Positions 11,082-63,201 of a stretch of 64,000 bases of DNA are shown one piece after another. The notes below the pieces were generated by a model. That model had not been told where the DNA came from, made no database searches, and saw only the letters and a list, made by a program, of their open reading frames with translations. Position numbers and translations under genes: made by a program. Position 1 is the stretch's first letter. Each line of letters begins with the position of its first letter. Origin of the DNA: an uncultured Candidatus Saccharibacteria bacterium (lineage in GTDB: Bacteria > Patescibacteriota > Saccharimonadia > Saccharimonadales > Saccharimonadaceae); NCBI GenBank assembly GCA_947302355.1, contig CAMYUU010000001.1, positions 465 to 64,464 on the forward strand. Reading direction: 5' to 3'.

Positions 11082-11436
11082 GGGGCTGACAAAGCTTAGA
11101 CGAATTATTAACAGACGCGATGCATGCCGATTGAATACCGTAAGTATTAAATAAGTGCTAAAAACACTAAAACAGCGCATGTCATGTACATGCCTGCTTA
11201 TGCCTAAGATTTTATAGGCTGGTTTCGTTCTGAGGTTCCGTAGGATCGAAATTATCATATAACGGGAATAAGGCTATTTAGATGGCGAAAAATAGTTCGA
11301 TAATTAGCCACGGCGCTAGTTAAGTTTCGTTTCCTGTAGCTGCTAGAATTTGCCAAGACAAAACAGAAAACTATGCATGTAGATTCACGTCCACGTGATA
11401 ATCCGGACCCGGAGGCAGTATCCGGCAGCTCCACCA
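11082..11436 (+). ncRNA. ssrA: tmRNA (SsrA), one-piece
   Basis: 5' GGGGCUGACAAAGCUUAGACG and 3' CCGGAGGCAGUAUCCGG-CAGCUCCACCA form a tRNA-Ala-like acceptor with G3:U. Candidate tag ORF at nt 76 (11157-11207): GCU AAA AAC ACU AAA ACA GCG CAU GUC AUG UAC AUG CCU GCU UAU GCC UAA = AKNTKTAHVMYMPAYA*. A T-run follows. Confidence 0.85.
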
Positions 11437-14791: not shown

Positions 14792-14828
14792 TTTATGCTA
14801 AAAAACTGGTCATCTAGGCCAGTTTTTT

Positions 14829-15168
14829 GGTGAGCCATCTTTAAGCCGGGTTCTGTAACCGTCTCGGGAGACGATTGGCAATCATCTATCTAGATACTGC
14901 ATTGCTACAGTACTCTAGCGGTGAGCGTGCGTCTTCGAGCAGAAGCTGATAGCACTCCTTGCAACAGGTAGGGTTTGCCACCGAACCGTATCACTACGAT
15001 TCACTGTGGGCTCTTGCCCCACTCTTTTCACCCTTACCAGCAAGCTGGCGGTATTGTTTCTGTGGTACTTTCCCTATCCTTGCGGACGGTCGCCGTTAGC
15101 GACTACCCTGCTCTGTGTTGCCCGGACTTTCCTCTTGGTAACCCAAGCGATTGCCTTTCAGGCTCCAT
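14829..15168 (-). ncRNA. rnpB: RNase P RNA (bacterial type)
   Basis: Minus strand contains GAGGAAAGUCCGGGC near the 5' end and ACAGAACCCGGCUUA near the 3' end. P1 pairing GGAGCC/GGCUC. ORFs 14975..15172 and 15006..15188 lie inside it and are taken as spurious. Confidence 0.88.
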
Positions 15169-19668: not shown

Positions 19669-20274
19669 CTATTCTTTTATGATTTTGTCTGGATCGATTA
19701 TTTCGGTAATTTCCATTTCTAATACTTCATAGATGAAGCGATCGCGTACGCTCTTGCGATAAGTAAAATCGTCAGGAGACATAATAACGTAGTTGATTGG
19801 CTTTCCCTGCTTTTTTTCGATTAGCTCCGCCCAGCGCGTGAGCTTCTTGGTTTTATCGTTACCAATAATCAATAAATCAATACCATCCTGGCCGGGAAGG
19901 CGATTCGTAACGACTAGGCCTTTGAGATAGTTTTTGACAGGACGACTGTACGTTTCCCATGTGGATTCGTGCACTTCTTTTTCTTTAGCTGTATTAATTT
20001 TTTTCGAAAAGATGTCTATAAGTGGGCGATAGAAAGGATGTTTGTTGTTGGCTGAATAATAAACTTTATTGTCGAATGTGTCACTCTTAATAATGCCGAT
20101 ACCTTCGAGATTCAATAGTTCTCTTCTGACTGAGTTGATCTGTTCGTCAATTACCCTTGTCATTTCTCGAACGTAAAAAGATTTGGTAGGGTTTTCAAAA
20201 AATAAACGTAGCAGCTTTGCTCTTGTCTTCGAGCCGAATAATTTTTCTGTGGGTGTATTAGTTACTTTGCTCAT
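19669..20274 (-). CDS. winged-helix transcriptional regulator with nucleotidyltransferase-like C-terminal half
   Basis: 201 aa. KTRAKLLRLFFENPTKSFYVREMTRVIDEQINSVRRELLNLEGIGII is a wHTH. C-terminal GQDGIDLLIIG is minimal-NTase-like. Confidence 0.55.
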   Translation of the reverse strand: MSKVTNTPTEKLFGSKTRAKLLRLFFENPTKSFYVREMTRVIDEQINSVRRELLNLEGIGIIKSDTFDNKVYYSANNKHPFYRPLIDIFSKKINTAKEKEVHESTWETYSRPVKNYLKGLVVTNRLPGQDGIDLLIIGNDKTKKLTRWAELIEKKQGKPINYVIMSPDDFTYRKSVRDRFIYEVLEMEITEIIDPDKIIKE

Positions 20275-21136
20275 TCTGGATATATTTTATCACGAATGAA
20301 TAAATTTTATCAAGTTCTAGCCAAATTATATTATCGTTTCTTTTAAACCATGTAAGCTGTCTTTTGGCCAAGTGCCAATCTTCATAAAAGCACTTTTCCT
20401 TTGCCTCTTCTAAACTCAGTTCGCCTTGCATGTATCGCCAAGCGAATTCATAAATATCACTTTTCATGGCACCGTTTTCCCAGCCGTATTTTTGAACAAG
20501 TTTATTAACCTCGTCGTATAGTTCTGGGCGGAACATTCGAGTAATTCTTTTATACAGTCTGTTACGCAGTTCAGGTGTTGACCACTTAATACCAATCAGT
20601 AAATAATTGCCTTTTATCTCTTTACGGTCTGAACAAGTTTTTTGTTCAAAGTCACCAATTTTCTCTCCTGTCGGCCCTTTGAACTGATAATCGTAGATAA
20701 GCGCATCGATGTAGAGCCCAGTGCCGCCAACTATAATTGGGACCTTGCCACGAGCTCTAATGTCTTTAATTTTATCTTCAGTATATCGCTTCCAGTCGGC
20801 TACCGTAAATCTTTCGCCAGGTTCGACTAAATCTAGTCCGTAATGCGTTATTCCTTGTTGCTCTTCCCTGGTGGGTTTAGCTGTACCAATATCCATGCCT
20901 TTATAAATAGCTCTGGAATCGGCGGAGATTATTTCCCCATCCAGTGCTTTTGCAATCTTGATTGAGACGCCGGTCTTGCCAGAGCCCGTAGGACCTAAAA
21001 TAACAATTGTGGGTATAGCCGAACAATACCTTTCAGGGGACGCTTCGTCGCGCCCGTCGTTACGGGGCTCCTCGCTTAGTTGCTCCCCGTTGGTCGCAAA
21101 AGCCCCTGAAAAGGTATTATTCTGGTTATCTTTCAT
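20258..21136 (-). CDS. miaA: tRNA dimethylallyltransferase
   Basis: 292 aa with VILGPTGSGKTGVSIKIAKALDGEIISADSRAIYKGMDIGTAKPT. The ~40-aa N-terminal extension is encoded by repeat copy C. Confidence 0.93.
   Translation of the reverse strand: MKDNQNNTFSGAFATNGEQLSEEPRNDGRDEASPERYCSAIPTIVILGPTGSGKTGVSIKIAKALDGEIISADSRAIYKGMDIGTAKPTREEQQGITHYGLDLVEPGERFTVADWKRYTEDKIKDIRARGKVPIIVGGTGLYIDALIYDYQFKGPTGEKIGDFEQKTCSDRKEIKGNYLLIGIKWSTPELRNRLYKRITRMFRPELYDEVNKLVQKYGWENGAMKSDIYEFAWRYMQGELSLEEAKEKCFYEDWHLAKRQLTWFKRNDNIIWLELDKIYSFVIKYIQNEQSN
21025..21118. repeat. GC-rich palindromic mini-element, family 1 copy C (diverged; inside miaA codons ~7-37)
   Basis: Core 21034-21108 (75 nt) shares CGCTTCGTCG..CCCGTCG..ACGGGGCTC..CTCGC with copies A, B and D. 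Outer inverted repeat AATACCTTTCAGGGG / CCCCTGAAAAGGTATT. Confidence 0.7.
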
Positions 21137-30456: not shown

Positions 30457-31695
30457 ATGAAGATAGCTTTCTTTTCGGATTGTTATTTGGATTTAACTGG
30501 CGGGATTGTTTCCTCGATGAATGCGCAAAAAAAAGCGCTAGAAAAGGCTGGGCATGAAGTTTGTATTTTTAGTACTGCCTATCCTAAGACCGAGCAAGAA
30601 ATTAAGAAATTAGCCGAGCAACATATTTACGTGGTGCCGAGTTGTAAATACTTAGTACGTGGAGCTACGCCAATATCTCGTCGCCCTGGAATAGTTGAAA
30701 AATGGTTATTATCTGAACATCCAGAAATTAAAGAATATGATGTTCTTTATGTGCATTATGAGTCTGGGTGTTCGATCGCGGGACTAAGGCTGGGCCAGAA
30801 GCTTAAGATTCCTACCGTGCAGGTAATGCACGGGCGCGAAGATGTGGGAGAAAGCAATATCATTCCCTTTGGATTTCGTACGATAGTCGCAGTGCTGTTT
30901 AATTGGTTTCATTCTTGGTATCTACCACATACCGTAAAAATACATCGTGATGATTATTTGGCCACTACTCTGGCGAAAGCTAAGATGTGGAGCTTGATGG
31001 TAAACCATGCCAACTATGCAGATTTGGTGCTCACTCCATCCGAGCATTTCAAAAAAAAGCTTCTACATTATGGCGTGACAAAAAAGATAAAAGTTTTTCC
31101 AAATTGTTTTAATGATGACAAATTCCCTAAGAATCCAGAGCCCAAGGAGTTAAAAGAAGGCGAAGAGCTTAAAATAATTTGGCATTCTAGAGTGACGCCC
31201 GAAAAGCGTATCATACCGTTTTTAGAGGCATTAACTCAAGTGCACGGCAAATACCGGCTGGACGTATATGGTGGTGGCGTAGATTTAGCAAGAGCGAAAC
31301 GCTACGCGAAGGAACATAATATGAACGCAATCTTTCATGGTGATGTTCCGTTTGACCAGCTTTCTAAGGCTATTTCTGATTCACATTTAGACGTTTTGGT
31401 TTCTTATAATTGTGACACTTTCGGCATGGCTTTGATTGAAGCCGAGGCTTATGGTGTGCCGGTATTGTTCTGCGATCCGGATATGAAAGAAATAGTACCA
31501 AAAGGTGGATATATTTTGACGGATGGTATAGAGCCGATAAAAATTGCGGAGGCAATCAATGATTTAATTAAGAATCCTGATGCAATTAGGCAAATGTCTG
31601 AAGTGATGCTCAACCACCGCACTGAGGTGCTGGCGTCAAACAGAATTAAAATCCTAGAAAAGATACTGAAAGATAATTTAATGTCATTAACTTAA
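30457..31695 (+). CDS. GT-B fold glycosyltransferase (family 4-like; possible glycolipid synthase)
   Basis: 412 aa. MKIAFFSDCYLDLTGGIVSS...; C-terminal FGMALIEAEAYGVPVL (E-x7-E-type region). Next to a CDP-alcohol phosphatidyltransferase gene. Confidence 0.7.
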   Translation: MKIAFFSDCYLDLTGGIVSSMNAQKKALEKAGHEVCIFSTAYPKTEQEIKKLAEQHIYVVPSCKYLVRGATPISRRPGIVEKWLLSEHPEIKEYDVLYVHYESGCSIAGLRLGQKLKIPTVQVMHGREDVGESNIIPFGFRTIVAVLFNWFHSWYLPHTVKIHRDDYLATTLAKAKMWSLMVNHANYADLVLTPSEHFKKKLLHYGVTKKIKVFPNCFNDDKFPKNPEPKELKEGEELKIIWHSRVTPEKRIIPFLEALTQVHGKYRLDVYGGGVDLARAKRYAKEHNMNAIFHGDVPFDQLSKAISDSHLDVLVSYNCDTFGMALIEAEAYGVPVLFCDPDMKEIVPKGGYILTDGIEPIKIAEAINDLIKNPDAIRQMSEVMLNHRTEVLASNRIKILEKILKDNLMSLT

Positions 31696-31810
31696 GCATG
31701 CCTAGCATACATATACTTCCGAGGTACGCTCCAGGCCGCTCTGGCCAAGTCTTTATGCCCTCGGAAGCATATGCATACTAGGCTCTAAGAATGCTTAAGT
31801 TAATGACATT
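31680..31810. repeat. 131-nt palindrome, family 2 copy F, overlapping the stop codon of the GT4 gene
   Basis: Outer 20-nt perfect arms AATGTCATTAACTTAAGCAT / ATGCTTAAGTTAATGACATT; the left arm encodes ...MSLT-TAA. Inner arms GCCTAGCATACATATACTTCCGAGG / CCCTCGGAAGCATATGCATACTAGGC. Core 31726-31760. Confidence 0.85.
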
Positions 31811-31830
31811 GAAGATATTTTTAAATTTCA

Positions 31831-31845: not shown

Positions 31846-32490
31846 ATGAGATACTTAGCAGATTTACTAACGTTTTCGCGTTTAATTATGGGCGCGGTTT
31901 TGTTTGTGATGGCCTTTACGGGAGGGTCGCCTGAAGCTGCTTTTATTCTCTTTATAGTGGCGGAACTAACGGATGCTTTTGATGGTACTTGTGCGCGCAA
32001 ATGGCCATTTCCGAAGAATAAAACTCCAAAATATCGCAAATATGCGGCTAAGTTTGACATGGCTACGGACGTGCTACTGGCTGGAGCGCAAGTGCTGTTT
32101 TTGACGTTCCAGGTCAACTGGATAGCGGGCGTGATCATTATGATTTATTATGCGATTTCTTCTGTTGGTGGCGATTTACTAGTTTATGGTAAACTACTTG
32201 GGCATCCCGATGATTGCACGGATGGGTCGCTCGCCAAGCGTAATTTTCCGTTGGCTAAGAAGATAATATTAACTAGGCGATATCTATATACGATTTGCCT
32301 TGGGCTTGTAAATGCTATGATTCTATTCGCTACGAGTTGGTCGGAGCCAGTAAAGTATGGACTAATCGCGTTTGGGTGTTTAATCTTTGTATTTGCTTGG
32401 TTTTTCCTAAAGCAAAGGCGAAAGAATATTTCGCGTGATGCGGTTGAGATTGAACGAGAGTTGGCAAGCAAGAAGAAAAAAGGTGAATGA
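31846..32490 (+). CDS. CDP-alcohol phosphatidyltransferase family protein
   Basis: 214 aa, multi-TM. AELTDAFDGTCARKW matches the D-x2-D-G-x2-A-R motif. Confidence 0.85.
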   Translation: MRYLADLLTFSRLIMGAVLFVMAFTGGSPEAAFILFIVAELTDAFDGTCARKWPFPKNKTPKYRKYAAKFDMATDVLLAGAQVLFLTFQVNWIAGVIIMIYYAISSVGGDLLVYGKLLGHPDDCTDGSLAKRNFPLAKKIILTRRYLYTICLGLVNAMILFATSWSEPVKYGLIAFGCLIFVFAWFFLKQRRKNISRDAVEIERELASKKKKGE

Positions 32491-32572
32491 AAATTCCTAA
32501 GCGCGCCCTTCGGGCACGCTCCAAGGCCGCTCTGGCCAGTCTTTATGTCCCGCAAGGCACCTTAGGAATTTT
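32490..32572. repeat. 83-nt palindrome, family 2 copy G, spanning two convergent stop codons
   Basis: Arms AAAATTCCTAAG / CTTAGGAATTTT. The left arm starts at the last base of TGA (32488-32490). The right arm encodes ...KNS-TAA of the minus-strand gene. Core 32516-32551 matches 31726-31760 apart from three 1-nt indels. Confidence 0.85.
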
Positions 32573-33353
32573 TATTCGCCATTATTCCACTTACCGTTGC
32601 ATCCATAAAATTGTTAGGATTATAGAGGTTAAGCGCGAGGATTTTGGTGGCGAGTTCGCCGTTCCATATGGTGATAGGTGAGTAGCCAGATTTAGAAAGC
32701 GCAATGGCTTTAACTACGCCGTTTTTAGCTATTAGTATTTGTTCATTGTGTAGTGTAACGATAGATACGGGATAGCTTAATGTGAACTTATGAAAAGCAT
32801 CGGCGACTTGGATGAGCGACTGCGACAGCAATAATACCTTGGGATAATATACGGCGCGAAATAGTTTGATAAGTTGTGACATAGAAGCAAGGAAGACGAG
32901 ATTTTCGTTCATAAATAATCTATCATTGATATTTTCAGCTAATAAATCTATGGCATCACGCGTAATTAGCAAAGGTTTTTCGGAAGACGCGCAGGCGTTA
33001 GAAATGGCTTTACCGGTCACGGAATTTTTGGATAAATCACCGATTAATAAATTAAAATCGACGGAGTTAATCGTTTTTAATATTTCATCGGCATTTGCGA
33101 ATGAACCTGAGTCGGTAGATTCTAAAAATACGAAGTTCGGCAAAGGTGGGAGTTTGGTTTCTAGGGCATCCGGAAGCACGGTATGTAGATTTTCGATAGG
33201 ATAGTTTTTATCCATTAACTCCGAGATGCGGATTTCAGTATTAAAATGTTGGCTATTGCCGCCGATAATATTCACGCTTCCCTGTTTTCTGTCTGGAATA
33301 TTCCAGGTGAGATCCGTATCTAACGGGCGTTCGATTTTTTCAAAATAATCCAT
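32562..33353 (-). CDS. hypothetical protein (distant YjeF-C / carbohydrate-kinase-like?)
   Basis: 263 aa. GSVNIIGGNSQHF and LLITRDAIDLL loosely recall NAD(P)H-hydrate dehydratase, but catalytic motifs are not evident. Confidence 0.3.
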   Translation of the reverse strand: MDYFEKIERPLDTDLTWNIPDRKQGSVNIIGGNSQHFNTEIRISELMDKNYPIENLHTVLPDALETKLPPLPNFVFLESTDSGSFANADEILKTINSVDFNLLIGDLSKNSVTGKAISNACASSEKPLLITRDAIDLLAENINDRLFMNENLVFLASMSQLIKLFRAVYYPKVLLLSQSLIQVADAFHKFTLSYPVSIVTLHNEQILIAKNGVVKAIALSKSGYSPITIWNGELATKILALNLYNPNNFMDATVSGIMANKNS

Positions 33354-48734: not shown

Positions 48735-49760
48735 TTAATTCAAAAATCCGTTAATGATTCTCGATTCGGCTTCTTTTTTGGTCAGACCGAGCGTCATGAG
48801 CTTATTAATTTGGTCGGAGGCGAGTTTGCCGATGGCGGCCTCATGGATTAGCTCGGCGTCTTTAGTTTTGGCATTTAGTGCTGGAATAGCGTGGACCGCA
48901 GCATCGTCCATAATAATAGCATCACACTCAGAATGACCGCGACATTTATTATTCCCTATGATTGTGGCCTTAAAGGTTTGTTTTGATAGGTCACGAGCGA
49001 TGGAGCGCGAAGCGAGGTCGGCAGTAGAATCTTTACCATTTAAGTTTATTTCATAAAGACTTTCGGCACTTTGACGGCCATGGGTAAATAGGCGCTCTTT
49101 AACCATAAGCTTGGCGTTATCTTCGAGCTCCGCCGTGGTTTTTCGAATGGTAGAATCCACACCTTTGATTTGTTCAAGCTCAAGTGTTGCTTCGGAGTCT
49201 TTTTCGAGATAGACTTCAGTAGTTGGATTAAGGATTTTACCACCACCGCCGCGACCAAAACCATAGTGCTTTTCGATGTATTTTATTTTGGCATTTTTGC
49301 CCACGTAAAAACGATGGATGCCATCATGAACAGAATCTTGATCACCGCAATTATAGATACCGCAACCAGCAATAATAGTAACTTTGGAATTATCACCGAT
49401 ATAAAAATCGTTATATACCGCCTCCTTGAGGCCAGTGGCACTAATAGCTACAGGAATATGTACGGTTTCGTTTTTGGTGCCAGGTTTAATATAAATGTCT
49501 AAGCCGCTCTTTTTCTGCTTAGTTTTTATGTCAATATTTGCCGTGGATTTACGCCCGACAGATTTGCCATTGACACGAAAATTATAAGCACCTTTTGGAG
49601 CTGATAGCCGAAATGATGTTTCTCGGGCCGCGTCGCTCGCTCCCGTCGCCACGGGGCTCGCGCGCTCGTCCTCGCCTTGCCAGGCTCCGGATTCCCTCGA
49701 AACATCATTATCCGCTATTACTTCACAAAAGATTTGCTTTTCTTCTTCGCTTAGATTCAT
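48735..49760 (-). CDS. sufB: SufB/SufD-family Fe-S cluster assembly protein
   Basis: 341 aa. C-terminal IHEAAIGKLASDQINKLMTLGLTKKEAESRIINGF matches the SufB/D signature. The N-terminal region contains repeat copy B. 4-nt overlap with sufC. Confidence 0.85.
   Translation of the reverse strand: MNLSEEEKQIFCEVIADNDVSRESGAWQGEDERASPVATGASDAARETSFRLSAPKGAYNFRVNGKSVGRKSTANIDIKTKQKKSGLDIYIKPGTKNETVHIPVAISATGLKEAVYNDFYIGDNSKVTIIAGCGIYNCGDQDSVHDGIHRFYVGKNAKIKYIEKHYGFGRGGGGKILNPTTEVYLEKDSEATLELEQIKGVDSTIRKTTAELEDNAKLMVKERLFTHGRQSAESLYEINLNGKDSTADLASRSIARDLSKQTFKATIIGNNKCRGHSECDAIIMDDAAVHAIPALNAKTKDAELIHEAAIGKLASDQINKLMTLGLTKKEAESRIINGFLN
49612..49709. repeat. GC-rich palindromic mini-element, family 1 copy B (inside sufB/D codons ~18-50)
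   Basis: Core 49624-49698 matches copy A at 70/75. Perfect 11-nt outer arms AATGATGTTTC / GAAACATCATT. Confidence 0.85.
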
Positions 49761-52563: not shown

Positions 52564-52712
52564 AATGCAGTAATTATACCCTAATTTCTAAAAACCAGCA
52601 AGAATGCGAGGTAGTTAAGCCGCTAAGCAAGGCTCATATGACTCATCAATCTTAATATTACCTTGATTTTTTGGCAGTTTAATGTATAATTATAAACCGT
52701 TAGCCCTATTTT

Positions 52713-53645
52713 ATGGCCGTAATTCAAGGTTGGAAGGGGAGCACATTGGACAAGTATGTGTTGTTAAACGAAGAGAGCACAGTGATAGGTGAAGGGGGGA
52801 TGCCAAAAGTCGTACGGAGGATTCAGGCAGAGATTGATATCCCTCGTCATGGCGTCGTAAGAGGCCAGAAAGGCGGCTGGATTGAGAGCGAGGATAACCT
52901 CTCTCAAGATGGCGACGCCTGGGTTGATATCAACGCGACCGTTTACAATGAAGCCGTAGTAAAAGACAACGCCCTTGTTACTGGGTGGGCCGTAGTCGAG
53001 GGTAAAGCTGTCATCGAAGATGATGCTAAGGTGTGCGGATCGGCCTGGGTCTATGATGATGCTAGAGTATCAGGTCGAGCGGTAGTATCTGGATATGCCA
53101 ACGTCTTTAACCAGGCGCACATTTATGATGATGCGCTGTTGGGGGGTGTAGCAAAGGCGTTCGGTAGCACCAAGATTCACGGTCATGCCAGGCTACATGA
53201 TGAAGCTCGTGCCTATGAAAACGCCGATCTTAGCGACTATGCAAACGTGCGTTATAACGCTAGGATTCATGGTGACGCTGAGATTGGCGGTCACGCTGAC
53301 ATCTGTGGCGAGGCCGAGGTGTATGAGCGTGCCAAGGTGCTGGGGGATGCCCATGTCTATGGCTCCACCAAGATTCATGGTGACGCACAGATTGATGGTA
53401 ATGTAGTGATCTGTGGTAACGTTCAGATTTTCGAAGAAGCCAAACTCTTCGGTAACGCTATGGCCAAGGGTCATGCTTTGATTGCCGGAAAGGCGAACGT
53501 GTCCGAGAGGGCCATAATCTGTGATTCAGCCGAAGTCCGTGGCGAAACCGTTGTTCGTGGGAAAGCGAAAGTCTGTCGTCGCGCAAGCCTAGTTCAAGGC
53601 GATTACTCGCGTGGCTGGATTGTGATTAAGCAACAACATGCATAG
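52713..53645 (+). CDS. YdcK-like left-handed beta-helix (hexapeptide-repeat) protein
   Basis: 310 aa. N-terminal VVRRIQAEIDIPRHGVVRGQKGGWIESEDNLSQDGDAWV parallels E. coli YdcK as I recall it. It is followed by 35 or more six-residue repeats ([DN]A.[VI].G). Elevated G+C. Confidence 0.6.
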   Translation: MAVIQGWKGSTLDKYVLLNEESTVIGEGGMPKVVRRIQAEIDIPRHGVVRGQKGGWIESEDNLSQDGDAWVDINATVYNEAVVKDNALVTGWAVVEGKAVIEDDAKVCGSAWVYDDARVSGRAVVSGYANVFNQAHIYDDALLGGVAKAFGSTKIHGHARLHDEARAYENADLSDYANVRYNARIHGDAEIGGHADICGEAEVYERAKVLGDAHVYGSTKIHGDAQIDGNVVICGNVQIFEEAKLFGNAMAKGHALIAGKANVSERAIICDSAEVRGETVVRGKAKVCRRASLVQGDYSRGWIVIKQQHA

Positions 53646-58468: not shown

Positions 58469-59311
58469 TTAACCATTAAGTCGCTTGATTAATTCTTTTA
58501 GGTCTTTTTCGGTCTTACACTTAAAGGTGAGACTGTGGCCACTAATGCGAGCTACAGCATTATATTTGTCGCTAAGAGTGTCTTCTTCTTTACGATAAAG
58601 GCTTTGTTTGATTAAGGCTGTAGAGGATTTCTTTTTATGATCTGCAAAATAACGTTCTACTTTGCGGGCAGTCCAGCCCTCTTTGATAATCTTTGGTAAC
58701 ACTTTATTAATGGTGGCTTCATCACGAGAAACTAGAGGACGCATGACCCCTTCAGATAGTTTTTCCTTAACCATGATTTTCTTGACATCTTCTGGCAAGT
58801 TAAGTAGTCTCATGGTGCTCTGGACGGAAGCTTCACTTTTACCAACTTTGGCTGCGATATCCTCAGCGCTAAGATTAAACTGGTTTTTAAGCTTAGCATA
58901 TGCGGTGGCAAGCTCAATTGCGTTAAGGTCTTCCCTTTGGGCGTTTTCAATAATGGAGAGTTCGAGACGGTTTTGAGAATCAAGAGTACGGACAATGGCT
59001 GGGATTCTATCAAGGCCTGCAATTTTAGAAGCTCGCCAGCGACGCTCACCTGCAACGATTTTGTATTTTCCGTCTTCTCTAGTTACTACGATTGGTTGCA
59101 AAACGCCGTGTTCCTTGATTGATTGAGCTAGGGCATTTATTGCGTCCTGATCAAATTCGCGCCTTGGCTGATCTTCGTCACGAACGATTTCTGTGATTCT
59201 GATCTGCTTTAGCTCACTATTCTTTTTATCTTCGGCCGCAGTAGGATCAAATTCGTCGTCTATTAGCTCGGTTGGAATTAAACTTTCAAAGCCTCTGCCT
59301 AATCCTTTCAT
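58469..59311 (-). CDS. parB: chromosome partitioning protein ParB
   Basis: 280 aa. GVLQPIVV, KIVAGERRWRASK, HTH region. Confidence 0.92.
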   Translation of the reverse strand: MKGLGRGFESLIPTELIDDEFDPTAAEDKKNSELKQIRITEIVRDEDQPRREFDQDAINALAQSIKEHGVLQPIVVTREDGKYKIVAGERRWRASKIAGLDRIPAIVRTLDSQNRLELSIIENAQREDLNAIELATAYAKLKNQFNLSAEDIAAKVGKSEASVQSTMRLLNLPEDVKKIMVKEKLSEGVMRPLVSRDEATINKVLPKIIKEGWTARKVERYFADHKKKSSTALIKQSLYRKEEDTLSDKYNAVARISGHSLTFKCKTEKDLKELIKRLNG

Positions 59312-60078
59312 TTTGTTCTCCCTTCTAATTCTCTAGTGAAATTTTTATAAGCCTTTGCACCTTTTGAAAACCTGTCGTAATCGCCTACCGGCACACCGTG
59401 ACTCGGAGCCTCGGCTACCCGTACATTGCGAGGGATAGTAGTCTTGAAGGTCAATTGCTTGAAATACTTTTGGATTTCGGCATAGACTTGCGCCGAAAGA
59501 CTGGTTCTTTTGTCATACATCGTAGCCAGGACACCAAGCAACTTGAGATTAGGGTTGGCTTGCTTCATAACGAGCTTCATGGATTCTAAAAGTTGCGCTA
59601 CGCCTTCCAGGGCATAAAATTCAGTCTGCACAGGAAGTAAAAGGTAATTAGAAGCGATCATACCATTTACCGTTAAAAGCGAAAGGGATGGTGGCGAGTC
59701 AATAATGACATAGTCGTAGTTTTGTTCTACTGAACGAATCGCATCGCGCAAACGAGTAAACCTGCGCGCTTGCCCAGCCATTTCAACCTCAGCATTAGCC
59801 AATTCTGGAGTAGCAGGTGCTAAATCAAAATTCTTGTATTTGGTGTGATGGATGACGTTTTCGAGTGGGGTATTCTCCGTTATTACGTTTGTCATGGTCG
59901 GGCCAAGGGATTCGTCGTTTTTATCTATCCCGAGGCCACTAGTAGCATTACCCTGAGGGTCGAAATCGATAAGTAAAGTTCTAAACTTATCTTTGGCAAG
60001 GTAATAGCTCAGATTAACAGCAGTAGTGGTCTTCCCTACGCCGCCTTTCTGATTTGTAACACAGATTACCTTCGCCAT
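59308..60078 (-). CDS. parA: chromosome partitioning ATPase ParA/Soj
   Basis: ORF track start 60153; ATG 60078 (MAKVICVTNQKGGVGKTTT) fits the deviant Walker A N-terminus. TGTTATAAT sits 10 nt upstream. Confidence 0.92.
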   Translation of the reverse strand: MAKVICVTNQKGGVGKTTTAVNLSYYLAKDKFRTLLIDFDPQGNATSGLGIDKNDESLGPTMTNVITENTPLENVIHHTKYKNFDLAPATPELANAEVEMAGQARRFTRLRDAIRSVEQNYDYVIIDSPPSLSLLTVNGMIASNYLLLPVQTEFYALEGVAQLLESMKLVMKQANPNLKLLGVLATMYDKRTSLSAQVYAEIQKYFKQLTFKTTIPRNVRVAEAPSHGVPVGDYDRFSKGAKAYKNFTRELEGRTK

Positions 60079-60088
60079 AATACTTACG

Positions 60089-60097
60089 ATTATAACA
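60089..60097 (-). promoter_or_regulatory. extended -10 box (TGTTATAAT) 10 nt from parA ATG (very short leader)
   Basis: Minus strand reads TGTTATAAT-CGTAAGTATT-ATG. Confidence 0.4.
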
Positions 60098-60110
60098 TAA
60101 AAATCACAAA

Positions 60111-60264
60111 AAAATAACTCGTCTTCATTCGCAGTTTGCTTTGCTCCAAGCAAAACCTTCGTTGGCCAATCGGACTTGCGCCCGGTACTATCCGGTACTC
60201 AGCTCGACTGACCTCCTCGGTTTTGCTTGGGCTCGCTCAATGCTCACTCAGTCTGAGTTATTTT
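60111..60264. repeat. 154-nt compound palindrome E between rplU stop and parA promoter
   Basis: Outer arms AAAATAACTC / GAGTTATTTT; the right arm overlaps the rplU TAA. Inner 12-bp arms CCAAGCAAAACC / GGTTTTGCTTGG. GC-rich centre with CTCCTCGG and GGGCTCGCTC motifs. A T-run follows on the minus strand, so it is terminator-like. Confidence 0.75.
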
Positions 60265-60571: not shown

Positions 60572-60680
60572 ATTATTCCTTTATTAACTCTGACTATTTT
60601 ACCATATTATCTGAGTTTTGGGAAGAGGTAATATTGACTGGTTTATTATTGTTACAAATATAGTTTATTAAAAAGACAAG

Positions 60681-60706
60681 AAAAGGCGCCGCGGTTAAGC
60701 GGCGCC
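60681..60706 (-). terminator. intrinsic terminator of the 60715..61188 gene
   Basis: GGCGCCGC-GGTTAA-GCGGCGCC, followed on the minus strand by TTTTCTTGTCTTTTT. Confidence 0.75.
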
Positions 60707-60714
60707 GTAAGGGG

Positions 60715-61188
60715 CTACTGGGGCCCCGGTACGAGGAGGACGACAAATCGGAGGGGGTCCTTAAAGACCTCATCCACGTCAACCCCGTCATCTGACGGGA
60801 CTTCGGCATTGGGTGCCGAAGCATCCTCGTCGGAGGAGGAGGAACCATTGCTGGCCGAGAAGAGGCGCTCCACTGGTAGCTGGTTGCCCAGACGATAGAC
60901 GGAGCCGCTGTGGGTCTCTATCTCCAGGCCACGCCGGTCGTGGATGATCGTCTCAATGTTGCCCGTGACCCAGACCTCGCCGTTAAGGCTGCGATCCTCG
61001 TTGGTCATATTTGCCAACACGAAGAGCCCACGACGAAGCTCGAGGCCGACCATGGCGCCCCCCTTCAGGAGCTCGACAGCCGCCTTGGCGACATCAGCAA
61101 CGCCTTCGTCAAGCCACTGGTTGCACCTCTTCGCGGCGATGTCGTACCCCCTCCGGTCGGTTACGACATAGTTCTCCAAGAGTTTCAC
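60715..61188 (-). CDS. hypothetical protein (high G+C island)
   Basis: 157 aa. GTG start with an AAAGGAGAA SD; acidic Ser/Asp-rich C-terminal third; no family recognised. Confidence 0.5.
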   Translation of the reverse strand: MKLLENYVVTDRRGYDIAAKRCNQWLDEGVADVAKAAVELLKGGAMVGLELRRGLFVLANMTNEDRSLNGEVWVTGNIETIIHDRRGLEIETHSGSVYRLGNQLPVERLFSASNGSSSSDEDASAPNAEVPSDDGVDVDEVFKDPLRFVVLLVPGPQ

Positions 61189-61274
61189 GGTTTTCTCCTT
61201 TCCTCTCTTGGTTTTTAATGTGCACCTTCACGGCCCTCCCCCTGATCTCTCAGGGGGAGGATGCTACTGGGATG

Positions 61275-61937
61275 CTACACTCTGATAACCTCATACTCGA
61301 GATTATCAAGGTTCAACAAGGCACAGACATCGGTTCGGTAGGTTCCCAAATCGATGCAGACCTTGTGGCCTTCGCAGTAGAAATGAGGCTCTATGGGCAC
61401 ACGCCCAAAATAACCACAATCCACCGGAGTGTGTCCGTGTACAACGAAGATTTTCCTAGCCCCGAGTTCCCAGGGGTCGGAAAAGTGATCGCGGTCCCAG
61501 AGGAAGTCGTCGTCCGACAAACTCGTCAAGGCGACTTTCCTTGGAGTGTACCCGGCGTGACTAAGGAGCATGAGCCCCATCTTTGTCACGAGCACTTCCC
61601 TGGTTGGGGTGGAACGCAACTTTTCGAGTATGCGAATCGGACAGCCGTCCGCTCGCCACCCATCGAAAGTCGGTTGACCACCACAACGGTAAACCCAGTG
61701 AATGAAGTTCTCGTGGTCGTTCTCGAGGACTCCATTCACGAACAAGTCGTCGTGGTTACCCTTAATGTAGGTGATGCGCGGATCGGCCAAGATTTCTCTC
61801 AGCATGAGGTACCCATCAGGGCCCCTATCCGCAACATCGCCCAAGCAAAAAAGGCGATCACTAGGACTGGTTCGTTCCTGGATTGCGCGCCACGCATCCA
61901 GATTGCCGTGCAGGTCGGAGAAGGCGAAGTTAGCCAT
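61275..61937 (-). CDS. lambda-type Ser/Thr protein phosphatase (calcineurin-like metallophosphoesterase)
   Basis: 220 aa. FSDLHGN, LGDVADRGPDG, IKGNHDD, VVHGHTP are the PPP-family motifs. GAAAGGAG SD. Confidence 0.8.
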   Translation of the reverse strand: MANFAFSDLHGNLDAWRAIQERTSPSDRLFCLGDVADRGPDGYLMLREILADPRITYIKGNHDDLFVNGVLENDHENFIHWVYRCGGQPTFDGWRADGCPIRILEKLRSTPTREVLVTKMGLMLLSHAGYTPRKVALTSLSDDDFLWDRDHFSDPWELGARKIFVVHGHTPVDCGYFGRVPIEPHFYCEGHKVCIDLGTYRTDVCALLNLDNLEYEVIRV

Positions 61938-62038
61938 GCTAACTCCTTTCTGCGCCGATTTGGCGCGGTTGGGGGATAAAAGACAATAAATCTAATACGT
62001 ATTAATCCTCAGGGGATCCCCACAACCTTCTCCTATTT

Positions 62039-62157: not shown

Positions 62158-62238
62158 GTAGGTGATATGTAACAGTCGGGGTTATAGATAGTACCTTAAT
62201 AACCCCCCTTTGGGCAATTGCCCAGAAAGGAGCTTCTC

Positions 62239-63201
62239 ATGAGCGAGGAGAACCTGATTGCAGTAGTCCAGATTCTTGCCGAGATGGGGTGTGTTGGCAT
62301 ACTCTTTGACGAGCTGGTCGAGATTGGGCTTCGGCCCACTCAACTGGTTGAGCACATGTCGGCGTACGAGATGTGCTGCCATGCCGAGGATATCCTCGAT
62401 GACGGTATGTCTGCGGACGAGTTTCTTCGCTCGGTAGGCGCAGAAGTTGAGGAGTGCCTCAATGAAGGCAATGACTCCTGTCTCAAAGCCTTGCTCTGCC
62501 ACGGCGCCGATGCGACGATGCTGGTAGAGATGGCTTCAGATGGCTTGACTCCTCAGCACCTCAAGCTCTTTCGAGAGTTCGGTGCAAGCGAGGAAGCAAT
62601 TGCTAAGTCAATTCCCCTCGAGCTGTCGCGTAGTCAGAGGAGGCGATTCGGCCTACAGTTGGAGGACAAGCGCGTGACGGCCCATACCCTTCTCGAGAAT
62701 ATGGATAAGGGTAAGCTCGGGAGGTACTGCGGTGAGGTCTTGGATCTCGGAGTTTATCCCGAGCTTGCGGCCGCTGCCCTCGATCCGATTGACCTGGCAG
62801 ACAACATGGAGGTGCTGATTCAGCATGGAGCAGATCCGAACTCCGTGGCCGCCTTACTTCCGCAGGAGCTTAAGTTCGAGTTCTGCGAGGAGCTAATTGA
62901 GTTGGGCGTGAAGCTCAACGCAAACGAGCTTGTCGAGTACATCAAGAGCGCTAACATTGGAAATCCTGAAGTGGTTTCCTATGTTGCCATCATGACGATG
63001 GACGGCGACGGCCTGTATCTTGATGGCCTGGAAAAGGTCTTCAAGCGTGGCGCGACTAGCTGGCTCGAGGAACGTGACTGGGACGACGAGGGCAACGAGG
63101 ACGATGAAAACGACGAGGATGACGACGGCAATGAGAGCGACGATACTGACGATGATGTCAACTATTATTGGCGCAATAACGTCCTAGGCATCTCGCCGTA
63201 G
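62239..63201 (+). CDS. helical-repeat (ankyrin-like?) protein with poly-acidic C-terminal tail
   Basis: ORF track 62218 (TTG); ATG 62239 has an AAAGGAG SD. LKALLCHGADATML, MEVLIQHGADPNSV and EELIELGVKLNAN recall ankyrin LL..GAD.N ends. Tail is DWDDEGNEDDENDEDDDGNESDDTDDD. Confidence 0.5.
   Translation: MSEENLIAVVQILAEMGCVGILFDELVEIGLRPTQLVEHMSAYEMCCHAEDILDDGMSADEFLRSVGAEVEECLNEGNDSCLKALLCHGADATMLVEMASDGLTPQHLKLFREFGASEEAIAKSIPLELSRSQRRRFGLQLEDKRVTAHTLLENMDKGKLGRYCGEVLDLGVYPELAAAALDPIDLADNMEVLIQHGADPNSVAALLPQELKFEFCEELIELGVKLNANELVEYIKSANIGNPEVVSYVAIMTMDGDGLYLDGLEKVFKRGATSWLEERDWDDEGNEDDENDEDDDGNESDDTDDDVNYYWRNNVLGISP

What the first reader, a model, noticed from the sequence alone, without database searches (positions are those of the whole stretch)
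49612..49709. Second copy of the same element in sufB/D, read in a different frame at nearly the same distance from the start codon
Seen: the shared core is translated here as ESGAWQGEDERASPVATGASDAAR. In gyrA the same nucleotides give GVRSLARRGVAREPRGDGSERRAP. For example, GAG CCC CGT in gyrA corresponds to GCG AGC CCC GTG here. One DNA element is therefore tolerated in two reading frames in two housekeeping proteins. The core starts 62 nt after the ATG here and 66 nt after it in gyrA. This copy has perfect 11-nt outer arms, AATGATGTTTC (49612-49622) and GAAACATCATT (49699-49709), which differ from the arms of the other copies. Inference: either insertions are only tolerated in disordered N-terminal tails, or the hairpin has an RNA-level role near the 5' end of these mRNAs.
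Basis: partly seen in the sequence, partly recalled or inferred. Interest (0 to 1): 0.75.

Follow-up and report, generated by a model that had tools for sequence, protein, structure and literature searches.

The report
In-frame palindromic repeats in Saccharibacteria genes
The GC-rich hairpin inside sufD is one copy of a ~120-nt palindromic repeat that sits in frame in dozens of housekeeping genes of Saccharibacteria; it resembles the selfish 'protein-coding palindromes' of Rickettsia, but its arms are specific to each locus and its orientation follows DNA strand asymmetry.

Summary
The 76-nt GC-rich core at 49623-49698 is 93% identical to one in gyrA. The two are read in different frames, 62 and 66 nt after well-supported start codons. 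The sufD copy has perfect 11-nt arms of its own. A third, diverged copy lies in miaA.

The element belongs to a large family in Candidatus Saccharibacteria: more than 120 loci, 145 copies analysed. Each copy has a conserved three-way-junction core and arms of about 22 nt that differ at every locus yet stay complementary.

About 90% of copies lie inside long ORFs that read through them. They occupy 61 independent sites spread evenly along genes, in both orientations, using two of the three sense frames. They therefore appear to be translated, tolerated insertions. The sufD copy falls in an N-terminal tail with pLDDT below 50. The family shows no 5'-end rule and no fixed orientation relative to the mRNA.

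Orientation instead follows DNA strand asymmetry: 118 of 134 copies have their sense strand on the C-rich strand. Cores flip in place, the two arms change in concert, and deletion remnants exist.

Best reading: a selfish DNA-level palindromic repeat like the Rickettsia RPEs. It is a new variant, and how it moves is unknown.

The parts
49602..49721 (-). Copy B, the whole structured element (arms plus core) inside sufD
   Evidence: Covariance model R1 matches full length at 83.0 bits, E 1.4e-16. The sense strand folds at -60.5 kcal/mol as RNA, z -5.65, and at -32.5 kcal/mol as DNA.
49699..49718 (-).
   Evidence: It pairs with the 3' arm. Its sequence differs from that of every other copy.
49623..49698 (-). 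Copy B core. It starts with GA and ends with GA (a tandem G.A junction) and holds a closing stem, a variable hairpin 1 (GCCTGGCAAGGC) and a conserved hairpin 2
   Evidence: 93% identical to 4873-4948. Structure. Covariation.
49637..49659 (-). Most conserved part, hairpin 2: GAGCCCCGTGGCGACGGGAGCGA on the sense strand
   Evidence: This pattern seeded 120 or more loci in Saccharibacteria genomes. Its upper stem is nearly invariant across 127 sequences.
49604..49622 (-). Copy B 3' arm (sense GAAACATCATTTCGGCTAT, encodes ETSFRL)
   Evidence: It changes in concert with the 5' arm in five other SufD lineages.
48735..49760 (-). sufD-family gene (341 aa) that hosts copy B; the insertion adds 34 codons net
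   Evidence: ORF. Homologues are SufD / PF01458; most are 307 aa and the filled ones are 340-342 aa.
4851..4973 (-). Copy A in gyrA (core 4873-4948), read in the other frame
   Evidence: R1 scores 69.1 bits.
2297..5014 (-). gyrA, host of copy A
   Evidence: The Shine-Dalgarno sequence plus ATG lie directly after the gyrB stop.
21013..21131 (-). Copy C in miaA (core about 21034-21109), a different hairpin-1 subtype, in the gyrA frame
   Evidence: R1 scores 86.8 bits. Orthologous copies occur in L001 and L092.
20258..21136 (-). miaA, host of copy C
   Evidence: The P-loop GPTGSGKT follows the insertion.

Best explanation
Copy B belongs to an old, multi-copy family of palindromic repeats in Candidatus Saccharibacteria. 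Each unit is about 120 nt long. It has a conserved GC-rich core of about 75 nt with two hairpins on a three-way junction, bracketed by tandem G.A, and two complementary arms of about 22 nt that are specific to each locus.

Shown. Copies lie inside coding sequence wherever the host protein tolerates an extra loop or tail of about 34-40 residues. The only intragenic copies seen are those that keep the reading frame open. They are therefore most likely translated as filler peptides whose sequence is irrelevant. Two sense frames and the antisense frames are all used, and substitutions in the core are compensatory at the nucleotide level but non-synonymous.

Inferred. The element behaves as selfish DNA acting through single-stranded DNA hairpins or a cruciform, not through the host mRNA. 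Its orientation is tied to the compositional (replication-type) asymmetry of the two DNA strands. The core can flip between its arms. The two arms are kept complementary by concerted change, through template switching or arm-to-arm conversion and/or selection for the stem. Cores are homogenised or replaced by subtype across copies. Copies are lost by internal deletions that leave arm footprints.

Unknown. How new copies arise. No transposase, target-site duplication or autonomous partner was identified.
For: Family and host range. 145 true copies were found, and 128 match the covariance model.

Structure. 83.5% of cells are paired against 58% in shuffles. The covariation score is 0.588 against 0.147 (0 of 500 shuffles reach it) and 0.09-0.12 in the slid controls. 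All 20 outer-stem pairs use all four Watson-Crick types. The arms carry almost no consensus but pair out to a mode of 22 nt.

Reading frame kept open. Of 138 copies, 124 lie in ORFs of at least 120 codons that read through them: 89 sense and 35 antisense. Sense copies use frames 55:32:0. The unused frame has TAA or TGA in the GTAACG/GTGACG loop (read directly from the sequences). In L125 against the window, four core changes form two compensatory pairs, and all four are non-synonymous.

Tolerated and dispensable. SufD is 307 aa without the element and 340-342 aa with it. Residues 1-71 have pLDDT below 50. Deletion remnants are L129 and L130 and L131 and L132.

Not tied to the mRNA. There are 61 host sites, position along the gene is uniform, and 7 sites carry both orientations. 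In-place inversion is seen in L045 against L079 and in P0124 against P0126.

DNA-strand polarity. GC skew on the element-sense strand is negative for 118 of 134 copies. This holds for sense copies (76/86), antisense copies (31/34) and intergenic copies (11/14), and for 52 of 59 independent sites, p = 1e-9. Copies within one locus lie on the same strand in 29 of 34 pairs. The coding-strand effect is too small to explain this.

Concerted arms. Between the window and L128, 4 of 4 arm differences are mirrored in the other arm. Between the MnmA copies L064 and L133, 3 of 6 are mirrored.

Core against flanks. At orthologous sites the core is either at least 95% identical or of a different subtype. 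Arms (63%) evolve faster than flanks (72%).
Against: No transposase, autonomous element or target-site duplication was found. The longest direct match across the arm ends averages 3.47 nt against 3.20 +/- 0.12 in the control. Mobility is therefore inferred only from copy number and patchy distribution.

Identical 64-nt cores occur in at least 10 species whose flanks are 70-80% identical. This is hard to explain without strong nucleotide-level selection, which could mean a host function, or ongoing transfer between species.

G.T mismatches outnumber A.C by 144 to 74 in element orientation. The sense strand always folds better. Both point to a strand-specific folded form, which could be RNA as well as ssDNA.

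Translation of the insert is inferred from ORF integrity, not shown.

Filled and empty SufD alleles are interleaved in phylogeny. This requires allele transfer or recurrent gain and loss, and neither was demonstrated.
Confidence: 0.6

Rival explanations
1. A new kind of mobile element that builds its own arms. In this reading only the core moves, for example as a folded single strand at the replication fork. Fold-back (template-switch) synthesis then copies about 22 nt of one target flank in inverted orientation, producing a locus-specific palindrome at each insertion.
For: The arms are unique at every locus even when the cores are identical. Arm length has a sharp mode at 20-24 nt. The outer arm sometimes coincides with native codons: GTGATT (V-I) in L058 and RTNM / ILVR in MnmA. 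The SufD left arm keeps the lineage's own A-D or A-G codons. A second, unrelated core family in the same genomes also has locus-specific arms. Orientation shows replication-strand polarity.
Against: In the filled-versus-empty pairs examined, neither arm is clearly present at the empty site. The net insert size of 99-111 nt fits neither 'core + 1 arm' nor 'core + 2 arms' cleanly. Arms demonstrably change in concert after insertion, so old shared terminal repeats could have drifted apart while staying complementary. A weak residual consensus (TTC|GA...GA|GAA, with an A-rich stretch at positions 10-14) is compatible with decayed terminal inverted repeats. No recent presence/absence polymorphism was available to test this.
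Confidence: 0.15
2. A host-beneficial nucleic-acid site. The conserved T-shaped core would be a binding or processing site for a cellular factor, on DNA (for example related to replication or chromosome structure) or on RNA. It would be scattered through the chromosome and merely tolerated by the proteins it interrupts.
For: Cores are extremely conserved across species relative to their flanks: 0.96-1.0 against 0.69-0.87 for cores of the same subtype. Changes in the core are compensatory. The tandem G.A and tetraloop features are typical of recognised motifs. Orientation follows strict strand polarity, as for other polar chromosomal motifs. G.T mismatches exceed A.C on one strand.
Against: Individual copies are dispensable: orthologues are empty or hold deletion remnants. 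Different hairpin-1 subtypes occupy the same site. The element is absent from most SufD lineages. No Rfam family matches even at E <= 10. No partner has been identified.
Confidence: 0.15
3. A cis-acting mRNA structure near the 5' end of housekeeping mRNAs. It would regulate translation or mRNA stability.
For: All three window copies lie within about 70 nt of a start codon. The sense RNA folds very stably, at -50 to -67 kcal/mol with z about -5. The stem of 20 bp or more could be an RNase III substrate (inference).
Against: Position is uniform along genes across 61 sites. 28% of intragenic copies are antisense to the host gene. The core is inverted in place between species. Orientation follows the DNA strand, not the gene. 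The element is absent from most orthologues of the same genes.
Confidence: 0.05
4. An intervening sequence that never reaches the protein. It would be excised from the mRNA at the long stem, or bypassed by the ribosome (as with T4 gene 60 or the mitochondrial 'byp' elements).
For: The element is a GC-rich insert in an AT-rich genome, with a long perfect stem that brings the flanking codons together. This is an analogy only.
Against: Every intragenic copy keeps the host frame open with no stop: 124 of 124 lie in ORFs of at least 120 codons. The one sense frame that contains a stop is never used (0 of 87). Net insert lengths are multiples of three, for example 102 nt in SufD. That constraint would be unnecessary if the insert were removed or skipped.
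Confidence: 0.03

Closest known systems
Rickettsia palindromic elements, RPE-1 to RPE-8 (Ogata et al. 2000 Science 290:347; 2002 Genome Res 12:808; cited from my own knowledge and from the reference list of PMC6649704)
   Same: Both are palindromic repeats of about 100-150 nt, in many copies in a small host-associated genome. Both insert in frame into housekeeping genes, are compatible with the protein fold, occur in genes and between genes, and are interpreted as selfish DNA that is translated.
   Different: The phylum differs and no sequence relationship was tested. RPE copies share a consensus over their whole length, termini included. Here only the core is shared and the 22-nt arms are unique to each locus and evolve in concert. 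Here also the orientation follows strand skew in 88% of copies, and the core flips in place. According to PMC6649704, RPEs lose repeat identity over time, whereas these arms stay complementary.
Bacterial MITEs (Correia/CREE, ERIC, RUP, Coxiella QMITE; review PMC10969869; PMC5896051)
   Same: Both are small, non-autonomous, hairpin-forming and multi-copy, and both occasionally extend or interrupt ORFs.
   Different: MITEs are defined by conserved terminal inverted repeats, target-site duplications and a parent insertion sequence. Here the terminal repeats are not conserved between copies, no target-site duplication signal is seen, and no parent element is known.
ssDNA-hairpin elements: IS200/IS605 and their PATEs, and REP/BIME with RAYT transposases (PMC3733652; replication coupling of IS608 cited from my own knowledge, Ton-Hoang et al. 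2010 Cell)
   Same: Both depend on a hairpin formed by one particular DNA strand, and both show an orientation bias relative to replication. This is the behaviour the strand polarity and the G.T over A.C asymmetry suggest here.
   Different: Those elements have small subterminal or single REP hairpins with a conserved GTAG or CGTC tag, are extragenic, and come with an HUH transposase. Here the element is a 120-nt T-shaped palindrome, mostly intragenic, and no HUH gene was examined or found.
Coding palindromes in Nematomorpha mitochondrial genes (PMC6649704)
   Same: Both have locus-specific inverted repeats inside coding sequence, with both arms translated. In both, arm identity is actively maintained. 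Template switching or conversion is proposed as the mechanism, with a parasitic character.
   Different: Those palindromes have no shared conserved core and are not a dispersed repeat family. The arms there are up to 284 bp long.
Parvovirus/AAV inverted terminal repeats (shape analogy only, from my own knowledge)
   Same: Both have a T- or Y-shaped fold, with a long stem carrying two small hairpins. In both, the asymmetric centre exists in two orientations (flip and flop).
   Different: The viral repeats are genome termini used for rolling-hairpin replication. No homology, no viral context (0 hits in viral contigs and phages) and no Rep protein is seen here.
Mitochondrial GC clusters, double-hairpin elements and 'byp' elements (from my own knowledge)
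   Same: Both are GC-rich hairpin elements that spread in AT-rich compact genomes and sometimes land in coding regions.
   Different: Those are shorter and organellar, and the byp elements are skipped by the ribosome. Here the frame is always preserved.

Membership tests
Protein-coding palindromic repeats (RPE-like, as a kind) | Dispersed multi-copy palindromic repeat of about 100-150 nt | tested here: met
   There are 3 copies in 64 kb and 145 copies in about 1 Mb of Saccharibacteria loci. Units are about 117-123 nt.
Protein-coding palindromic repeats (RPE-like, as a kind) | Inserted in frame in protein-coding genes, with the ORF preserved | tested here: met
   Of 138 copies, 124 lie in read-through ORFs of at least 120 codons. 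SufD gains 34 codons.
Protein-coding palindromic repeats (RPE-like, as a kind) | Insert is transcribed and translated | not testable with these tools
   This is inferred only from the preserved frame and the avoidance of the stop-containing frame.
Rickettsia RPE families proper | Sequence homology to the RPE-1 to RPE-8 consensus; Rickettsiales host | not tested
The host here is Saccharibacteria, so common descent is unlikely.
Rickettsia RPE families proper | Consensus conserved over the full length, including the palindromic ends | tested here: not met
   The arms carry at most 0.3 bit per position beyond the 3 junction-proximal nucleotides, yet they pair out to about 22 nt.
MITE (classical) | Terminal inverted repeats shared by all copies | tested here: not met
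MITE (classical) | Target-site duplication | tested here: inconclusive
   The longest direct match at the arm ends averages 3.47 nt against 3.20 +/- 0.12 in shuffled pairs. The arm ends are fuzzy.
MITE (classical) | Related autonomous insertion sequence with a transposase | not tested
   Only 10 window ORFs were scanned, and none is a transposase. No genome-wide search was possible.
REP/RAYT or IS200/IS605-type ssDNA elements | Orientation bias relative to the replication strand | tested here: met
   118 of 134 copies and 52 of 59 sites have the sense strand on the C-rich strand. Which strand is the leading one is not settled.
REP/RAYT or IS200/IS605-type ssDNA elements | Short REP hairpin with a GTAG or CGTC tag, extragenic location, linked HUH Y1 transposase | tested here: not met
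   The element is a 120-nt three-way-junction palindrome and is 90% intragenic. The transposase was not examined.
Cis-regulatory mRNA structure | Fixed orientation and position relative to the regulated gene; conserved in orthologues | tested here: not met
   No Rfam match.
Excised or bypassed intervening sequence | Insert need not preserve the frame or avoid stops | tested here: not met
   The frame is always preserved, and the stop-containing frame is used by 0 of 87 sense copies.

The most novel reading that the evidence does not exclude
The element may be a previously unrecognised class of replication-polarised hairpin element. In this reading a conserved T-shaped core propagates, or is maintained, through single-stranded DNA at the fork. 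It creates and continually repairs its own locus-specific arms by fold-back or template-switch synthesis, flips between two orientations, and spreads between Saccharibacteria alleles by recombination. This would be a mobility and maintenance mechanism without conserved ends or a dedicated transposase. Alternatively, the core is a polar chromosomal site with a host function, embedded inside essential genes.
Probability: 0.2. Interest if true: 0.85.

Novelty: new variant of a known kind. Interest (0 to 1): 0.62.

Why it matters
Saccharibacteria have some of the smallest and most streamlined bacterial genomes. Even so, dozens of their essential genes carry an in-frame palindrome of about 120 nt. 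The hosts seen here include gyrA, sufD, miaA, mnmA, dus, trmD and several aminoacyl-tRNA synthetases, sometimes with three copies in one gene.

- Annotation. The element explains puzzling length variation and low-complexity inserts in these proteins (SufD 307 or 341 aa, MnmA 345-444 aa). It also causes mis-called start codons, as in P0002.
- A second lineage for 'protein-coding palindromes'. It gives an independent and much larger natural data set on how proteins absorb arbitrary peptides in several frames.
- A system for studying palindrome maintenance. The locus-specific, concertedly evolving arms, the in-place flipping and the 88% strand polarity bear directly on how palindromes are created, maintained and oriented with respect to replication. 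Saccharibacteria can now be manipulated genetically (PMC10633639), so these questions can be tested.
- A practical marker. The conserved core is a specific sequence marker for this clade in metagenomes.

Tried and rejected
**Searches that found nothing**
- Rfam, with gathering thresholds on the whole window and with E <= 10 on the locus: nothing beyond RNase P, tmRNA and tRNAs.
- Exact-pattern scan of viral contigs: 0 hits.
- BLAST of the element against plasmids and phages: one chance GC-rich hit and none, respectively.
- Four literature searches: no description of this element in Saccharibacteria or Patescibacteria.
- More window copies: the next-best covariance-model hit scores 12 bits, E 1.8.
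- Pfam on ten window ORFs: no transposase.

**Ideas tested and rejected**
- N-terminal or 5' bias. Rejected at family level.
- 'The arm is simply the native flank duplicated in inverted form.' Filled-versus-empty comparisons in SufD, IleRS-like, YchF-like, LepA, RluB-like, TyrRS-like, ValRS and ArgRS were ambiguous, because the sites are variable loops and the pairs are only 50-90% identical.
- 'Perfect arms mean a young insertion.' Rejected. The MnmA and SufD sites are old, yet their arms are near perfect because both arms change together.
- The 'empty' MnmA alleles as naive sites. Rejected. They retain outer arms and a hairpin-1 fragment, so they are internal deletions.
- Target-site duplication. 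No convincing signal.
- Single insertion plus vertical descent for SufD. Rejected. Filled L125 is closest to empty L124 (87%), and filled alleles are scattered in the tree.
- Coding-strand composition as the cause of the skew polarity. Rejected.

**Left inconclusive**
- Leading or lagging strand. Gene orientation in the window favours the element-sense strand as leading. A few translation-gene markers favour the G-rich strand as leading.
- Family 2. The first search pattern for it failed because of an indel; it was recovered with fuzzy matching.
Full report

Yes. The + strand at 49612-49709 reads AATGATGTTTC, then a 76-nt core, then GAAACATCATT. The core (49623-49698) is about 80% GC in a window of 43% GC. 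It is 93% identical to 4873-4948. A 24-nt piece of it occurs exactly twice in the window, against zero expected.

Both copies lie in minus-strand ORFs. One is a SufD-family gene (48735-49760) and the other is gyrA (2297-5014). Translation gives RESGAWQGEDERASPVATGASDAARETS in sufD and GVRSLARRGVAREPRGDGSERRAP in gyrA. The same nucleotides are thus read in two frames. The cores begin 62 and 66 nt after the ATGs.

The starts are sound. Each has a strong Shine-Dalgarno sequence and abuts the stop of the upstream gene (sufC, gyrB). The 14 SufD residues before the insert are conserved in 120 orthologues. A third, diverged copy lies in miaA (about 21013-21131, in the gyrA frame). The arms of the three copies are unrelated to each other.

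**2. Anatomy**

The sense strand of each copy folds into a long outer stem. The stem leads through a symmetric GA/GA internal loop into a short closing stem and a three-way junction with two hairpins. RNA folding energies are -60.5, -67.0 and -50.5 kcal/mol, with z about -5 to -5.7.

Hairpin 2 (GCGCGAGCCCCGTNNCGACGGGNGCGAGCG, with its own tandem GA) is the conserved heart. Hairpin 1 comes in several subtypes. With both RNA and DNA parameters, the sense strand always folds better than its complement. Rfam has nothing like it, even at E <= 10.

**3. It is a family**

Apart from a few chance matches in GC-rich proteobacteria, all were Candidatus Saccharibacteria or Nanosyncoccus MAGs from ruminant and human samples.

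A profile search found 145 true copies in these loci plus the window. A covariance model built from 47 copies finds exactly the three window copies (86.8, 83.0 and 69.1 bits) and 128 copies in 98 sources.

On that alignment, 83.5% of cells are paired against 58% in shuffles. The covariation score is 0.588, against 0.147 in shuffles (0 of 500 reach it) and 0.09-0.12 when partners are slid. All 20 outer-stem pairs show changes on both sides and use all four Watson-Crick types.

Anchoring on the GA junction shows that the arms have almost no consensus beyond three nucleotides (TTC|GA ... GA|GAA). Even so, they pair out to a mode of 22 nt, with a tail beyond 50 nt. Copies with identical 64-nt cores in different species have completely different arms.

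**4. Relation to genes**

Of 138 analysable copies, 124 lie inside ORFs of at least 120 codons that read straight through them: 89 sense and 35 antisense. The other 14 have no long ORF through them and appear to be intergenic.

Sense copies use two frames (55 and 32) and never the third. In most subtypes the third frame has TAA or TGA in the hairpin-2 loop (read directly from the sequences). The 124 intragenic copies fall into 61 independent host sites. These are spread evenly along genes (deciles 7 3 7 9 5 8 4 7 5 0).

Hosts include gyrA, sufD, miaA, mnmA, dus, trmD, lepA, ychF-like genes and several aminoacyl-tRNA synthetases. Up to three copies occur in one gene.

SufD orthologues are mostly 307 aa; those with the element are 340-342 aa, a net gain of 34 codons. 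An AlphaFold2 model of the window SufD has pLDDT below 50 for residues 1-71 and a beta-helix core modelled with higher confidence from about residue 61 onward. This copy therefore sits in a tail that is probably disordered.

Intact frames everywhere, avoidance of the stop-containing frame, and insert sizes that are multiples of three all argue that the inserts are translated rather than excised or bypassed. This is an inference; no expression data were available. The peptide itself is not what is conserved. Between the window and L125, the four core differences form two compensatory pairs, and all four are non-synonymous.

**5. Dynamics**

*a. Patchy distribution.* In a tree of 120 SufD sequences built without the insert region, the filled alleles are scattered. 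All share the same site, homologous arms and the same 1-nt bulge, so they have a single origin. Filled L125 is closest to empty L124 (87% nt identity), closer than to any other filled allele. This requires allele exchange by recombination or repeated gain and loss.

*b. Loss.* L129 keeps the 5' arm and the first 13 nt of the core. L130 keeps the 3' part. The 'empty' MnmA alleles L131 and L132 still have the outer arms, and in L131 a hairpin-1 fragment. They are internal deletions.

*c. Concerted arms.* Across six SufD lineages the arms differ at many positions, but both arms change together. Between the window and L128, 4 of 4 differences are mirrored. Between the MnmA copies L064 and L133, 3 of 6 are mirrored. 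Arms evolve faster than the flanking coding sequence (63% against 72% identity in 45 orthologous pairs). Cores are either at least 95% identical or of a different subtype at the same site. This suggests homogenisation or replacement of cores, together with structural constraint.

*d. Inversion in place.* L045 and L079 share flanks (87-91% identical) and homologous arms, but the core is reverse-complemented. P0124 and P0126 show the same at the MnmA site, with the small asymmetries between the arms swapped as well.

*e. No target-site duplication signal*.

**6. The orientation rule**

Orientation relative to the host gene is only 72:28. Relative to the DNA strands it is close to fixed.

- GC skew of the surrounding locus, with the element excluded, is negative on the element-sense strand for 118 of 134 copies (mean -0.115).
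- This holds for copies sense to their gene (76/86), antisense (31/34) and intergenic (11/14).
- It also holds for 52 of 59 independent sites (p = 1e-9).
- Copies that share a locus lie on the same strand in 29 of 34 pairs.

The coding-strand contribution to skew (about +0.065) is much smaller than the strand effect (about 0.16) and has the wrong sign for sense copies. Where the same gene lies on opposite skew strands in different species (MnmA, TrmD, ValRS), the element's orientation relative to the gene differs, so the rule is kept.

Mismatches in the arms are G.T twice as often as A.C in element orientation (144:74). The ratio is 40:10 in copies antisense to their gene, although alignment bias may contribute. 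Together these results point to a folded form of one particular DNA strand, linked to replication, rather than to the host mRNA.

I could not settle which strand is the leading one. In the window the element-sense strand carries 77% of the coding length. A few translation-factor markers in other loci lie on the G-rich strand.

**7. Interpretation**

The best-supported reading is a selfish DNA-level palindromic repeat family. It survives inside genes only where an extra loop of about 35 residues is harmless. That is the same kind of element as the Rickettsia palindromic elements.

It differs from them in several ways:
- only the core is shared between copies;
- the arms are specific to each locus and kept complementary by concerted change (template switching or conversion, as discussed for other coding palindromes in PMC6649704, and/or selection);
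- the core flips in place;
- orientation is polarised with strand asymmetry, a behaviour known for ssDNA-hairpin elements such as IS200/IS605.

It fails the defining tests for a classical MITE, since it has no shared terminal inverted repeats and no clear target-site duplication. It also fails those for REP and for a cis-regulatory RNA.

Three things remain open: how copies arise, why cores stay identical across species, and whether the arms are decayed terminal repeats or are made from the target by fold-back synthesis. A second, unrelated core family in the same genomes also has locus-specific arms. This suggests a general process in these organisms.

**8. Verdict on the finding**

The second alternative, an RNA role at the 5' end, is not supported.

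No description of this family was found in the searchable literature, in Rfam, or in the phage and plasmid collections. I rate it a new variant of a known kind. Interest is moderately high because of the strand polarity, the arm behaviour and the scale of in-frame colonisation of essential genes in a minimal genome.

Noticed in passing
window 31677-31813 and 32470-32592; also L091 (minus strand, about 215-365) and L103 (minus strand, about 3970-4120): A second, unrelated palindromic family. The shared core is ACGCTCCA(A)GGCCGCTCTGGCCA(A)GTCTTTATG(C/T)CC, with long AT-rich arms that differ at each locus. Both window copies are intergenic, directly after gene ends. Neither Rfam nor model R1 hits them. 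They follow the same building principle as the main element: a conserved GC-rich core plus locus-specific arms.
   Followed up: partly
window about 4830-4860 (minus strand, gyrA codons ...SSVSEEGVSEVS...): Downstream of copy A, gyrA encodes SEEGVSE. This is homologous to the 3' arm of the element that occupies a slightly different position in gyrA of L101, L026 and L005. It looks like a footprint of an older insertion next to the present one, so the gyrA N-terminal tail is a recurrent landing site.
   Followed up: partly
L117 (ValRS-like ORF, 982 aa), L025 (ArgRS-like ORF, 660 aa): Each gene carries three separate copies of the element in frame.
   Followed up: no
MnmA orthologues P0121-P0240 (L064, L131-L133): Protein length ranges from 345 to 444 aa. 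This arises because elements are present, absent, inverted or partly deleted at at least three sites (N-terminus, mid-protein, C-terminal region). One allele (P0125) has an extra nested insert.
   Followed up: partly
L123:1501 (protein P0002): The public annotation starts this SufD at an ATG created inside the 5' arm of the element (MADNDVSRES..., 327 aa). The conserved start lies 14 codons upstream. The element therefore causes start-codon mis-calls.
   Followed up: yes
L008 (about 6754-6895), L076 (about 5151-5303), L035 (about 5972-6127), L066 (about 2087-2243): Longer variants of 140-157 nt, with an extra GC-rich hairpin nested inside hairpin 1 or hairpin 2 of the core.
   Followed up: no
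Intergenic copies, e.g. L002, L008, L009, L044, L085, L091: In intergenic copies the right arm often runs into a T tract, with an A tract before the left arm. The unit therefore looks like a bidirectional intrinsic terminator with the core in its loop.
   Followed up: no
window 60677-61105 and ORFs 60987-61976, 62203-63198: A GC-rich island (up to 0.73 GC) and two ORFs of about 330 aa with no Pfam match, next to parA (59311-60198). This may be foreign or lineage-specific DNA.
   Followed up: no
window, whole: 77% of the coding length lies on the minus strand, while the + strand has a weakly positive GC skew throughout. There is no skew switch, so the window lies within one replichore. Other features: RNase P RNA at 14827-15166 (-), tmRNA at 11082-11436 (+), and three tRNAs.
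   Followed up: partly
window 53246-53452: 18-nt periodic direct repeats inside an ORF with weak, sub-threshold hexapeptide / beta-solenoid Pfam hits (52704-53642). This is an ordinary left-handed beta-helix repeat, unrelated to the element.
   Followed up: yes
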